Shown one piece after another: positions 45,852-45,942 of a stretch of DNA of 64,000 nucleotides. The position numbers and the translations under genes were made by a program. Origin of the DNA: a virus; IMG/VR virus record IMGVR_UViG_3300037067_026753, one strand, 5' to 3'. A model generated the notes under the pieces. The model saw only the letters and a list, made by a program, of their open reading frames with translations. It ran no database searches and was not told where the DNA came from. Within the stretch, counting starts at the first letter, position 1. Each line of letters opens with the position of its first letter.

Positions 45852-45942
45852 GGATATAACTTTAGTTCACCAAACCGAAGTTTGACGTTCGATTCGTCAT
45901 TCCCCCGCTAAGAAAATATGTGTTTTCTTGGTGGGGGAAAGT
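45852..45942 (+). ncRNA. tRNA-like minihelix RNA: T-arm (TGACG TTCGATT CGTCA) followed by a 17-bp closed acceptor-like hairpin (TTCCCCCGCTAAGAAAA/TTTTCTTGGTGGGGGAA). No D or anticodon arm. Unit 2 core
   Basis: manual fold; occupies the tRNA slot between the conserved flanking motifs. Confidence 0.45.

What the first reader, a model, noticed from the sequence alone, without database searches (positions are those of the whole stretch)
45852..45942. Unit 2 core is a tRNA top-half minihelix rather than a tRNA
The tRNA slot of unit 2 contains a canonical T-arm (TGACG-TTCGATT-CGTCA) followed by a 17-bp hairpin (TTCCCCCGCTAAGAAAA / TTTTCTTGGTGGGGGAA) that looks like an extended, closed acceptor stem. 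Too little sequence precedes the T-arm (31 nt) for both D and anticodon arms. A T-arm stacked on an acceptor helix is the minimal substrate recognised by RNase P, the CCA-adding enzyme and EF-Tu. It is also the part of tRNA that YrlA RNAs mimic.
Basis: seen in the sequence. Interest (0 to 1): 0.6.

Follow-up and report, generated by a model that had tools for sequence, protein, structure and literature searches.

The report
Phage Y-like RNA with permuted tRNA core
Unit 2 is very probably a small non-coding RNA of a huge phage, one of four encoded just upstream of a very divergent Ro60-like protein gene; its core is a rearranged tRNA copy with a sealed, lengthened acceptor stem, a new layout of the known tRNA-mimicking bacterial Y RNAs.

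Summary
The T-arm is at 45883-45899. A 17-bp closed hairpin (15 Watson-Crick, 2 G·U) is at 45900-39. Only 31 nt precede the T-arm.

Unit 2 (45819-45975) is one of four tandem units between a promoter-like site and a terminator, 0.7 kb upstream of a gene whose predicted fold matches Ro60.

Twelve distinct relatives of unit 2 sit next to homologous genes in metagenomic phage contigs. They share one covarying structure: 93% of cells paired against 40-46% in slid controls, and 39 of 49 pairs changed on both sides. The order is closing stem, D-stem 3' strand, anticodon arm, T-arm, closed acceptor of about 17 bp, D-stem 5' strand, closing stem. This is a whole tRNA, circularly permuted and opened in the D-loop.

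The window copy and its closest relative have lost the D stem, and the window's anticodon arm is weak. The top half is therefore what stays conserved, but the acceptor is sealed and has no CCA.

It works like a YrlA-type Y RNA but fails YrlA's sequence tests (no GNCGAA motif, no Rfam match). Ro60 binding and the role of the tRNA mimic are inferred. I rate it a new variant of a known kind.

The parts
45619..45648 (+). Sigma-70-like promoter candidate just upstream of unit 1 (TTGTTA-18-TATATT)
   Evidence: This is a consensus match only (9 of 12) and is not enriched over shuffles. Its position fits a single transcription unit for the four units.
45656..45796 (+). Unit 1: closing stem (45656-45667 / 45785-45796) around a canonical-order tRNA-like core with an encoded CCA
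   Evidence: I6; R1, 56.9 bits.
45819..45830 (+). Unit 2 outer closing helix, 5' strand (TTAAAACTGCTC). It pairs with 45964-45975.
   Evidence: I8: 12 nt, 100% complementary. Helix 1 has 7 of 9 pairs changed on both sides and 95% of cells paired.
45831..45838 (+). Conserved 5' side of the asymmetric internal loop (UUUAAC + AU). This is the candidate protein-contact site.
   Evidence: Family consensus cuCUaAC in 133 units. T12 and A14 are invariant in A3. The loop 6-mer is 79% identical within loci against 46% between loci.
45839..45851 (+). Inner closing helix 5' strand (CG.GUGCU) followed by the invariant unpaired UACAU (GCTTACAT = 45844-45851)
   Evidence: helix 2, G-C and C-G pairs invariant; GCWTACA was used as the anchor; the following T is in about 70% of units.
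45852..45860 (+). Remnant of the D-loop 3' part and D-stem 3' strand (GGAUAUAAC; relatives have GGWUAGAGC). GG at 45852-45853 corresponds to G18 G19.
   Evidence: GG is present in exactly the 8 of 12 members whose T-loop begins UU(C/U).
45862..45878 (+). Anticodon-arm homologue: UUAGU - UCACCAA - ACCGA, a 5-bp stem with one A.C mismatch. The free-energy minimum instead pairs 45858-45863 with 45877-45882.
   Evidence: The loop is identical to that of L027 2286-2458. Helix 4 has 3 of 5 pairs changed on both sides.
45879..45882 (+). Variable-region equivalent (AGUU)
   Evidence: Alignment A4; 4-5 nt in all members.
45883..45899 (+). T-arm: TGACG / TTCGATT / CGTCA
   Evidence: In one search, helix 5 has all 5 pairs changed on both sides and 100% of cells paired. 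The G53:C61 equivalent is kept in 11 of 12.
45900..45939 (+). Closed acceptor-like hairpin of 17 bp (15 Watson-Crick + 2 G.U) with loop UAUGUG (45917-45922). The first 7 bp (UUCCCCC/GGGGGAA) correspond to the acceptor stem.
   Evidence: I2. In one search, helix 6 has 16 of 18 pairs changed on both sides. The hairpin has 16-19 pairs in 11 of 12 members.
45940..45949 (+). Linker AGUAAAAAAU. The D-stem 5' strand (UAGCUCAG in relatives) is missing here.
   Evidence: Gap in A4 for the window and L081 only.
45950..45957 (+). Inner closing helix 3' strand (AGCAU.CG)
45958..45963 (+). Conserved 3' side of the internal loop (UAACUC; ACU at 45960-45962 is invariant)
   Evidence: (A139, C140, T141 invariant).
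45964..45975 (+). Unit 2 outer closing helix, 3' strand (GAGCAGTTTTAA)
   Evidence: I8.
45984..46129 (+). Unit 3: closing stem around a canonical-order tRNA-like core (UUG 'anticodon', A at position 33, encoded CCA)
   Evidence: I5; 61 bits.
46138..46300 (+). Unit 4: closing stem around a permuted tRNA-Ser(GCU)-like core in the order T-arm, 7-bp closed acceptor, D-arm, anticodon arm
   Evidence: I1; 37 bits.
46315..46346 (+). Intrinsic-terminator-like hairpin plus U run after unit 4
   Evidence: 12 pairs, 6 of them G-C.
46676..48226 (+). Gene for a 516-aa Ro60/Rsr structural homologue (helical repeat ring plus vWA domain with the MIDAS motif D-x-S-G-S)
   Evidence: AF2 pLDDT 85. The top 13 Foldseek PDB hits are all Ro60/TROVE, E 4e-11 to 5e-8, TM about 0.57. 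Pfam TROVE gives no hit. D337, S339, G340 and S341 are invariant.

Best explanation
Unit 2 is most likely the gene for a roughly 155-nt non-coding RNA of a huge phage. It would be a Y-RNA-like partner of the phage's divergent Ro60 homologue, and the tRNA-derived part acts as a structural mimic, not as a decoder.

Proposed mechanism:
1. The four units are transcribed on the + strand between the promoter-like site and the terminator.
2. The 5' and 3' ends of each unit pair into a bipartite closing stem. Its conserved asymmetric internal loop (5' UUUAAC, 3' ACUC) and unpaired UACAU are the common element of the family and the probable Ro60 docking site.
3. The stem carries an exchangeable 'cargo'. 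In unit 2 the cargo is a tRNA that was circularly permuted by grafting the closing stem into the D-loop.
4. The junction then has four helices: the closing stem in the D-arm position, an anticodon-like hairpin, the T-arm, and an acceptor stem sealed by a loop and lengthened to 17 bp.
5. T stem plus acceptor would stack into a rigid helix of about 22 bp, capped by a T-loop that can still dock on the retained GG (the tRNA 'elbow').
6. This module is displayed to a tRNA-recognising partner such as a modification, repair or nuclease activity, and/or shields the RNA from exonucleases. YrlA and Yrn1 do this for bacterial Ro60.

Shown here: the anatomy, the covariation, the linkage to Ro60-like genes and the Ro60 fold of the protein. 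Inferred: transcription, Ro60 binding, the identity of the partner and the biological role.
For: Location. The unit is 0.7 kb upstream of, and on the same strand as, a protein whose model (pLDDT 85) matches only Ro60/Rsr/TROVE structures over its full length.

Conserved structure. Homologues of that protein in metagenomic and IMG/VR contigs of up to 572 kb carry arrays of units with the same closing stem. A strict rule finds 133 distinct units in 64 of 109 sources. A covariance model built from unit-2-type sequences gives 233 matches in 756 kb of Ro-linked loci. It gives 1 match in 783 kb of unrelated control loci. In the 64-kb window the only strong matches are the four units.

Covariation in the 12 distinct unit-2-type RNAs:
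- 93.1% of cells are paired against 40-46% when partners are slid.
- 39 of 49 pairs have changes on both sides.
- 0 of 500 shuffles reach any of the measures.
- T-arm: 5 of 5 pairs covary. Acceptor hairpin: 16 of 18. Split D stem: 100% paired with four pair combinations.

G.U pairs place the structure on the + strand RNA.

The cargo is exchangeable while the stem is constant: 47 units have canonical-order tRNA, 29 have the T-arm first, 23 have a late T-loop and 34 have no T-loop. Loop motifs are locus-specific, 0.79 identity within loci against 0.46 between.

The tRNA elbow letters co-occur. GG is present exactly where the T-loop starts UU(C/U), 8 of 8 against 0 of 4.

Precedent. YrlA has a tRNA-like domain with a closed acceptor next to rsr, including in phages (PMC4201824; 10.1101/312249). 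Thermus phage phiLo Ro60 binds two Y-like RNAs encoded upstream of its gene (PMC12135203).

Context. The window encodes RtcB, an Rnl-type RNA ligase, an AAA_33 kinase and a tRNA array. This is the RNA-repair setting in which Ro60 occurs (PMC7824862).
Against: - There is no expression or binding data of any kind.
- The motif thought to mediate Rsr binding in known bacterial Y RNAs (GNCGAAN0-1G / CGAA) is absent from all four units.
- The Rfam YrlA model does not match at E <= 10, although it does find the YrlA upstream of the Bxz1 Ro gene.
- The Ro60 homologue is so divergent (11-14% identity; no Pfam TROVE hit) that its RNA specificity cannot be transferred from known proteins.
- The within-locus similarity of the loop motifs can also come from tandem duplication rather than co-evolution with the protein.
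- Arrays differ between close relatives: unit 2 is absent from L001, L105 and L106. It is therefore dispensable.
- Units 1 and 3 look like processable tRNAs with CCA, which fits a tRNA expression cassette as well.
Confidence: 0.6

Rival explanations
1. tRNA expression or processing cassette. The closing stems are double-stranded processing signals (for example for RNase III) that release tRNAs or tRNA-like cargos from a polycistronic transcript. The linkage to the Ro60-like gene would be only operon neighbourhood. Unit 2 would be a degenerate cargo.
For: Units 1 and 3 contain canonical-order tRNA bodies with a discriminator base and an encoded CCA. 47 of 133 units are called tRNA by ARAGORN. 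The units are tandem between one promoter-like site and one terminator. The outer helices are 9-12 perfect base pairs.
Against: - The 11 ordinary tRNA genes of the same phage (35364-37781) have no such stems.
- The stem has a conserved asymmetric internal loop and an invariant unpaired UACAU, which a plain RNase III duplex does not need.
- 34 of 133 units carry no tRNA-like cargo at all.
- Many 'anticodon' loops are irregular (A or C at position 33; 5- to 8-nt loops), and orthologous unit-1 bodies carry different anticodon-loop sequences.
- The linkage to Ro60-like genes holds down to 27-45% protein identity.
Confidence: 0.17
2. Circularly permuted pre-tRNA. The closing stem is excised, the two D-loop ends are ligated (for example by the phage RtcB) and the acceptor hairpin is opened by RNase P/Z. 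This would yield a working tRNA, as with the permuted tRNA genes of Cyanidioschyzon merolae.
For: In 10 of 12 members the two halves would rebuild a textbook D arm (UAGCUCAG...GGUUAGAGC). An RtcB gene lies 14 kb downstream. The two base pairs just beyond the 7-bp acceptor are the least well paired of the hairpin, with 3 and 4 of 12 cells unpaired. Wang et al. raise this possibility for YrlA (10.1101/312249).
Against: - The window copy and L081 have lost the D-stem 5' strand, yet they keep the T-arm, acceptor hairpin and closing stem with compensatory changes. Selection is therefore not for a canonical tRNA.
- The hairpin is held at 16-19 bp rather than 7.
- No bulge-helix-bulge motif is visible at the junction (sequence inspection).
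- No splicing endonuclease was found among the neighbours scanned.
- The anticodon loop here is UCACCAA, with C at position 33 and a mismatched stem.
Confidence: 0.06
3. Decayed tRNA pseudogene or chance hairpin with no function of its own.
For: Neither ARAGORN nor the Rfam tRNA model calls it. The D stem is lost and the anticodon arm weakened relative to relatives. Unit 2 is missing from some related arrays.
Against: - Twelve distinct homologues share the structure, with 39 of 49 pairs showing double changes and 93% of cells paired.
- The nearest relatives (L081 and L108; Ro proteins 74% and 69% identical) keep the T-arm and the 17-18-bp hairpin through compensatory substitutions.
- The fold z-scores are -5.7 and -6.4.
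Confidence: 0.03

Closest known systems
YrlA (Y RNA-like A; Rfam RF02553) of Salmonella, Mycobacterium smegmatis and mycobacteriophages
   Same: - Encoded within 4 kb of, and on the same strand as, a Ro60 orthologue.
- The 5' and 3' ends pair into a stem.
- The interior is a tRNA mimic with a T-arm followed by an acceptor-like stem closed by a loop.
- It resembles a circularly permuted tRNA without a free CCA end.
- It also occurs in phages, often with more than one Y RNA per locus (PMC4201824; 10.1101/312249).
   Different: - The opening is in the D-loop (order: D 3' half, anticodon arm, variable region, T, acceptor, D 5' half). In YrlA it is in the anticodon loop (order V-T-AS-D).
- A complete anticodon-type hairpin is present.
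- The acceptor hairpin is about 17 bp instead of usually 7 or fewer.
- There is no GNCGAAN0-1G motif.
- The Rfam YrlA model does not match here, although it matches Bxz1. Conversely, the model built here finds nothing near the Bxz1 Ro gene.
- The partner protein is not recognised by Pfam TROVE.
Deinococcus radiodurans Yrn1
   Same: A Ro60-bound Y RNA with a T-arm-like stem-loop and a stem-loop that can be drawn as an anticodon arm. Its module order differs from YrlA, which shows that tRNA-derived Y RNA modules arose in more than one arrangement (PMC4201824).
   Different: Yrn1 has no closed acceptor hairpin of this kind, and its tRNA resemblance is partial. Its function (tethering PNPase) is established experimentally; nothing is established here.
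Thermus phage phiLo Ro60 with Yrl1/Yrl2
   Same: A phage-encoded Ro60 with Y-like RNAs encoded directly upstream of its gene and a stem-bulge-stem design. Binding was shown in vitro and by cryo-EM (PMC12135203). phiLo Ro60 is among the structural matches of the window protein (9l5y and 9kop).
   Different: The Yrl RNAs were identified through a CGAA motif that is absent here. They are not described as tRNA-like. There are two RNAs rather than four.
Circularly permuted tRNA genes (Cyanidioschyzon merolae, Thermofilum pendens)
   Same: The 3' half of the tRNA precedes the 5' half, the acceptor is initially closed by a loop, and the termini pair (cited in 10.1101/312249).
   Different: Those are processed by the splicing endonuclease at a bulge-helix-bulge motif into working tRNAs. 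Here no such motif is visible, the acceptor extension is conserved at about 17 bp, and the window copy lacks a D stem.
tRNA acceptor/T-arm minihelix and other tRNA-like structures (tmRNA tRNA-like domain, viral 3' TLS)
   Same: A T-arm stacked on an acceptor-type helix with a canonical T-loop.
   Different: Minihelices, tmRNA and viral TLS have a free 3' (N)CCA end and a 12-bp stack. These features are what RNase P, the CCA-adding enzyme, synthetases and EF-Tu read (established knowledge). Unit 2 has a sealed helix of about 22 bp and no CCA.

Membership tests
YrlA / bacterial Y RNA | Encoded within about 4 kb of a Ro60 (Rsr) orthologue, on the same strand | tested here: met
   Unit 2 ends at 45975 and the Ro60-fold gene starts at 46676, both on the + strand. 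The same holds for most units in the related loci: 107 of 133 are on the gene's strand.
YrlA / bacterial Y RNA | 5' and 3' ends base-pair into a long stem with an internal loop or bulge | tested here: met
   Outer helix of 12 bp and inner helix of 5-7 bp around an asymmetric loop. Both helices covary (helices 1 and 2).
YrlA / bacterial Y RNA | GNCGAAN0-1G (CGAA) motif near the 5' end, the presumed Rsr contact | tested here: not met
   A regular-expression search of 45600-46350 finds no GNCGAAN0-1G. The three CGAA tetramers lie inside the units' tRNA-like cores and the unit 3 outer stem, not in the 5' closing-stem loop.
YrlA / bacterial Y RNA | tRNA-like domain in the order T stem-loop, closed acceptor-like stem-loop, then a complete D stem-loop, with the anticodon stem formed by distal segments | tested here: not met
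   T-arm and closed acceptor are present. There is no D stem-loop: the D stem is split in relatives and lost in the window. A full anticodon-type hairpin precedes the T-arm.
YrlA / bacterial Y RNA | Match to the curated covariance model (Rfam RF02553) | tested here: not met
   No YrlA or Y_RNA match at E <= 10 in 45500-46450. Positive control: the same model hits upstream of the Bxz1 Ro gene at E 2.8e-4.
YrlA / bacterial Y RNA | Physically bound by Ro60; carries tRNA modifications (pseudouridine 55, dihydrouridine) | not testable with these tools
   Needs immunoprecipitation or EMSA and modification mapping.
Canonical tRNA gene | Cloverleaf in the order acceptor, D, anticodon, T, acceptor, recognised by tRNA finders | tested here: not met
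   ARAGORN and Rfam RF00005 call units 1 and 3 but not unit 2.
   The T-arm is directly followed by the acceptor-type helix. However, the helix is 17 bp, closed by the 6-nt loop 45917-45922, and no CCA follows it.
Circularly permuted tRNA (pre-tRNA) | All four arms present in permuted order, with a bulge-helix-bulge motif at the joined termini | tested here: not met
   Ten relatives have all four arms. The window copy lacks the D stem. The closing stem has an 8- to 11-nt / 6- to 9-nt internal loop, not 3-nt bulges around a 4-bp helix.
Ro60 / Rsr (the neighbouring protein) | Helical-repeat (TROVE) ring plus a C-terminal vWA domain with MIDAS | tested here: met
   Fold level: Foldseek E 4e-11, TM 0.56-0.58 over the full length to Xenopus, human, Deinococcus and phage Ro60. 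The D-x-S-G-S motif is invariant. Sequence level is not met: no Pfam TROVE hit, no PDB sequence hit, and only phrog_850 'RNA-binding protein' at E 4e-4.

The most novel reading that the evidence does not exclude
Huge phages may carry a previously unrecognised branch of the Ro60/Y RNA system. In it, one conserved Ro60-docking stem serves as a universal socket onto which tRNA bodies are grafted at every possible opening: the acceptor end, the 7/8 junction, the D-loop (unit 2 class), the variable region (unit 4 class) and the anticodon loop (YrlA-like). Arrays of such RNAs with diverse or scrambled anticodon loops would then be presented by Ro60 as baits or decoys for host tRNA-targeting defence nucleases. 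Alternatively they could act as guides for the phage's own RtcB/Rnl tRNA-repair enzymes. The ~17-bp acceptor hairpin kept by 11 of the 12 unit-2-class members would act as a molecular ruler or as the recognition site for the effector.
Probability: 0.2. Interest if true: 0.8.

Novelty: new variant of a known kind. Interest (0 to 1): 0.58.

Why it matters
Y RNAs are the obligatory partners of Ro60, from bacteria to humans. Why bacterial Y RNAs imitate tRNA is still an open question.

This locus and its more than 100 relatives offer a natural experiment. The closing stem is held constant while the tRNA mimic is attached in several permutations, or replaced altogether. The partner Ro60 has diverged beyond sequence recognition. 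The setting is a huge phage that also carries tRNAs and RNA ligases.

If the RNAs bind the protein, three things follow:
- The family would define a second Ro60 recognition motif.
- It would show which part of the tRNA shape is indispensable. In unit 2 that part is the T-arm/acceptor stack and the elbow, not the D stem or the anticodon.
- It would link phage Ro60 particles to the conflict over host and phage tRNAs.

There is also a practical point. Such units are invisible to Rfam, and tRNA finders annotate only some of them, as odd tRNAs such as Asn(AUU).

Tried and rejected
- Sequence-level identification of the neighbouring protein failed. There was no Pfam family and no PDB sequence match, and only a weak PHROG hit. 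The fold search settled it.
- Rfam at gathering and at E <= 10 gave nothing for unit 2 except a chance microRNA match at E 8.3.
- An exact-pattern scan of viral contigs with the window's own closing-stem sequence found nothing; the motif is too variable for exact patterns.
- Look-up of the closest protein homologue (P0002, 86%) found no contig on record.
- Scans with the 17-nt pattern GCWTACATGGWTAGAGY returned 24 viral and 113 genomic stretches. Only one of the 100 stretches searched with model R1 is a real unit. About 500 chance matches are expected in 596 Gb, so I used these loci as a negative control instead.
- MAFFT and RNAalifold mis-registered the anticodon arm. I therefore added the anticodon arm and D stem by hand on the model-based alignment and counted them separately. 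The counts for helix 4 are lower bounds.
- A mobile-element reading (terminal inverted repeats around a tRNA-like core) was rejected. Each unit has its own outer helix, orthologous units are syntenic, and the helices covary.
- An archaeal split-tRNA reading, prompted by the NCBI label 'Nanoarchaeia' on the identical protein, was rejected. The window carries portal, large terminase and head protease genes, relatives are IMG/VR viral contigs, and no bulge-helix-bulge motif is present.
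Full report
**What is in the sequence.** Between 45656 and 46300 on the + strand there are four tandem units spaced 157-168 nt apart. Each begins with a variable 9-12-nt segment followed by CTCTTTAAC-N5-GTGCTTACAT. Each ends with AAAAATAGCAT-N5-AACTCGAGC followed by the reverse complement of the first segment. The ends of every unit can therefore pair (I6, I8, I5, I1).
- Units 1 and 3 enclose tRNA-like sequences that ARAGORN and Rfam call tRNA.
- Unit 4 encloses a T-arm, a closed 7-bp acceptor, a D-arm and an anticodon arm, in that order.
- Unit 2 is the finding.

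A promoter-like site (45619-45648) precedes unit 1, and a terminator-like hairpin (46315-46346) follows unit 4.

The T-arm is TGACG/TTCGATT/CGTCA at 45883-45899. The hairpin arms are 45900-45916 and 45923-45939, 17 positions of which 15 are Watson-Crick and two are G.U on the + strand. Thirty-one nucleotides (45852-45882) separate the conserved GCTTACAT from the T-arm. The core folds 5.7 standard deviations better than dinucleotide shuffles, and the whole unit 6.4.

**The neighbour is a Ro60 homologue.**
- The 516-aa product of 46676-48226 has no Pfam family and no sequence match in the PDB. It has only a weak hit to PHROG 850, 'RNA-binding protein'.
- An AlphaFold model built on 25 homologues has a mean pLDDT of 85.
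- Its 13 best Foldseek matches in the PDB are all Ro60/Rsr/TROVE structures aligned over the full length: human and Xenopus Ro60, Deinococcus Rsr and Thermus phage phiLo Ro60. E-values run from 4e-11 to 5e-8, TM is about 0.57 and identity is 11-14%. Isolated vWA domains follow.
- The MIDAS motif D-x-S-G-S is invariant in the family.

The window itself is phage DNA. It has portal, large terminase and head protease genes, and relatives of the Ro gene sit on IMG/VR contigs of 100-572 kb. It also encodes an intein-containing RtcB, an Rnl-type RNA ligase, an AAA_33 kinase, a WGR-PARP protein and an array of 11 ordinary tRNA genes.

**The units are a large family linked to this protein.**
- The protein has more than 296 homologues. 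I fetched 80 metagenomic and 24 viral loci, plus four contigs of close relatives.
- Upstream of the homologues, and sometimes on the other strand or downstream, there are arrays of one to seven units with the same closing stem.
- A strict rule requires the GCWTACA anchor, a 3' GCA...ACU motif and at least 7 contiguous outer base pairs. It finds 133 distinct units in 64 of 109 sources, with family consensus 5' cuCUaAC-N6-7-GCWUACAU and 3' GCA-N5-6-gACUYG.
- The interior varies. 47 units are canonical-order tRNAs by ARAGORN, 29 have the T-arm first (unit 4 type and YrlA-like), 23 have a late T-loop without being callable tRNAs, and 34 have no T-loop at all.
- The 5' loop hexamer is 79% identical between units of one locus and 46% between loci.
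- A covariance model (R1) built from eight unit-2-type sequences gives 233 matches at E <= 1 in 756 kb of these loci. In the 64-kb window the strong matches are only the four units.
- In 783 kb of unrelated loci that share a 17-nt seed by chance, R1 gives a single match, and that match is itself a unit.

**The unit 2 class.** Twelve distinct sequences score 94-154 bits with R1: the window, L081, L108, L002, L012, L058, L057, L055, two in L027, L019 and L035. Their common order is:
1. outer helix, conserved loop, inner helix, UACAU;
2. (G)G-W-U-A plus GAGC, which is the 3' part of a D-loop and the 3' strand of a D stem;
3. one nucleotide, then a 5-7-bp hairpin, usually with a 7-nt loop (anticodon arm);
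4. 4-5 nt, then the T-arm;
5. a long closed hairpin that starts with YUCCCCC/GGGGGAR;
6. UA, then GCUC-AG (the 5' strand of the D stem);
7. the 3' half of the closing stem.

This is a complete tRNA that has been circularly permuted with the opening in the D-loop, and whose acceptor stem is sealed and extended.

On the model-based alignment with the D stem and anticodon arm added:
- 93.1% of 566 cells form standard pairs, against 40.5-45.9% when the 3' partners are slid by 1-3 columns.
- 39 of 49 pairs show changes on both sides.
- None of 500 column shuffles reaches any of the five measures.
- Per helix: T-arm 5 of 5 pairs covarying and 100% paired; acceptor hairpin 16 of 18; outer stem 7 of 9; inner stem 6 of 8.
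- The split D stem is 100% paired in the ten sequences that have it, as GCUC/GAGC, GUUC/GAAC, GCUU/AAGC or GCUC/GAGU.

The acceptor hairpin has 16-19 pairs in 11 of 12 members despite very different sequences. The two pairs just beyond the seventh are the least well paired. GG in the G18 G19 position is present in exactly the eight members whose T-loop begins UU(C/U) and absent from the four with UGC, UGA or CUC. That is what the tRNA elbow contacts G18-U55 and G19-C56 would predict. The association is 8/8 against 0/4 and is not corrected for relatedness.

**What is special about the window's copy.**
- L108 has a Ro protein 69% identical to the window's and the same upstream TPR gene. It carries the same T stem (UGACG/CGUCA) and a nearly identical acceptor hairpin, plus an intact D stem and the anticodon arm UCAGU-CUGAUAA-ACUGA.
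- In the window and in L081/L082 (74% identical) the UAGCUC segment after the acceptor is missing and the opposite strand has mutated: GGAUAUAAC and GGUUUAAG against GGWUAGAGC.
- The window's anticodon-arm homologue is UUAGU-UCACCAA-ACCGA, with an A.C mismatch. Excised, it does not fold (0.0 kcal/mol against -2.6 to -6.3 in the others). In context it is rescued by pairing with the former D strand.
- GG 45852-45853 and the canonical T-loop are retained.

In this lineage the bottom half of the tRNA is eroding, while the T-arm, the 17-bp acceptor and the closing stem are kept by compensatory change. The part that does not survive is the minihelix biochemistry, because the helix is closed and carries no CCA.

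**Comparison with known systems.** The known systems are these:
- Chen et al. (PMC4201824) described YrlA RNAs next to rsr in more than 250 bacteria and 22 phages. They have a GNCGAAN0-1G motif and a tRNA-like domain ordered V-T-AS-D.
- Thermus phage phiLo Ro60 binds two upstream Y-like RNAs (PMC12135203).

Unit 2 therefore works like a YrlA in every respect that can be read from sequence. It nevertheless fails the membership tests:
- it has no GNCGAA motif;
- it has a different arm order and no D stem-loop;
- it gives no match to Rfam RF02553 at E <= 10, although that model finds the YrlA upstream of the mycobacteriophage Bxz1 Ro gene;
- my model finds nothing near the Bxz1 Ro gene.

I found no paper describing Ro60-linked RNAs of this design in huge phages. 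The only GenBank phage record with a homologue of the protein is an unannotated 595-kb uncultured phage.

**Mechanism and rivals.** I consider a Ro60-bound Y-like RNA the most likely reading (0.6). In it the closing stem is the docking site, and the T-arm/acceptor stack plus elbow is a tRNA-shaped handle for a partner or a shield against exonucleases. The rivals are:
- a tRNA processing cassette, 0.17;
- a permuted pre-tRNA matured with the help of RtcB, 0.06;
- a pseudogene, 0.03.

The rest is unassigned. Transcription, protein binding and function are all inferred. The decisive experiments are RNA end mapping and binding assays with stem-loop mutants.

**Verdict.** Unit 2 belongs to a conserved, covarying class of Ro60-linked phage RNAs. 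The class is best described as a new architectural variant of the YrlA type of tRNA-mimicking Y RNA.

Noticed in passing
window 46138-46300: Unit 4 is a circularly permuted tRNA-Ser(GCU)-like core inside the same closing stem. Its order is T-arm (GTCAG/TTCAAAT/CTGAC), a 7-bp acceptor closed by a triloop (CTCCACC-GGC-GGTGGAG), a D-arm, then an anticodon arm. The opening is therefore in the variable region. A 7-bp closed acceptor is the feature that made M. smegmatis YrlA an RNase P substrate. Orthologues occur in L081, L002 and L106.
   Followed up: partly
window 45656-45796 and 45984-46129: Units 1 and 3 are canonical-order tRNA bodies with a discriminator base and an encoded CCA, enclosed by the closing stem. 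ARAGORN calls them Asn(AUU) and Gln(UUG). Unit 3 has A at position 33. Orthologous unit-1 bodies in L081, L002 and L001 keep almost the same acceptor stem but have different anticodon loops (CUAUUAA, CUUAAAA, CUUCCAA, UCUCUAA). They are unlikely to be ordinary decoders and would be mis-annotated as tRNA genes.
   Followed up: partly
L030 978-1085, L054 2583-2690, L050 1268, L028 1762; L054 2743-2859, L077 2581, L073 807: Other units of the family show further permutations. Some run D-arm, anticodon arm, T-arm, then a closed hairpin (opening at the acceptor/D junction). Others run T, closed acceptor, D without an anticodon loop (the classical YrlA order). Together with units 1-4, nearly every possible opening point of the cloverleaf is represented.
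   Followed up: partly
L008 2673-2778, L006 142-247, L009 2309-2409, L017 2539-2634, L027 2143-2246, L005 473-537: A recurrent cargo that is not tRNA-like sits in the same closing stem: a short hairpin followed by CCGGGCC-UCAGUG-CCCGG-type hairpins. It is conserved across several loci and is probably a second effector module class.
   Followed up: no
window 59786-62179, 39367-40374, 50437-50949, 50906-52318, 49805-50437, 49030-49443: There is an RNA-repair and conflict gene set around the locus: RtcB interrupted by an intein, an Rnl-type RNA ligase, an AAA_33 (polynucleotide-kinase-like) protein, a WGR-PARP protein, a ThiF-type E1-like protein and a weak JAB-like protein. ThiF and AAA_33 are syntenic with the Ro gene in L105, L106 and L108.
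   Followed up: partly
window 45803-45810; L049 about 2830, L054 about 2560, L092 about 3400, L041 about 630, L124 about 10440: An ATTGAAA motif (often GTGNATTGAAAY) lies 0-16 nt upstream of 7 of the 133 units, against about 1 expected. It also precedes the unit in L124. It may be a phage promoter or a processing signal for individual units.
   Followed up: partly
window 1-64000 (protein P0001): The identical protein is deposited by NCBI under 'Candidatus Nanoarchaeia archaeon' on a 424-kb contig. However, the window carries portal, large terminase and head protease genes, and relatives are IMG/VR viral contigs. The MAG is most likely a mis-binned huge phage.
   Followed up: partly
window 40754-41797 and 41797-45474 (- strand): A response-regulator/HD-GYP-type (HD_5) gene and a 1225-aa TPR-repeat protein lie immediately upstream of the RNA array. 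The response-regulator/HD gene is also next to the array in L106, and a TPR gene is next to it in L108.
   Followed up: no
window 35364-37781 (- strand): Eleven ordinary tRNA genes lie in two clusters and lack the closing stem. A 330-aa ORF call (35621-36613) overlaps them and is probably spurious.
   Followed up: no
window 46423-46674: An 83-aa ORF directly precedes the Ro60-like gene. ORFs of 82-84 aa hold the same position in L105 and L108. It has no family assignment (only a weak DUF4170 hit at E 0.004).
   Followed up: no
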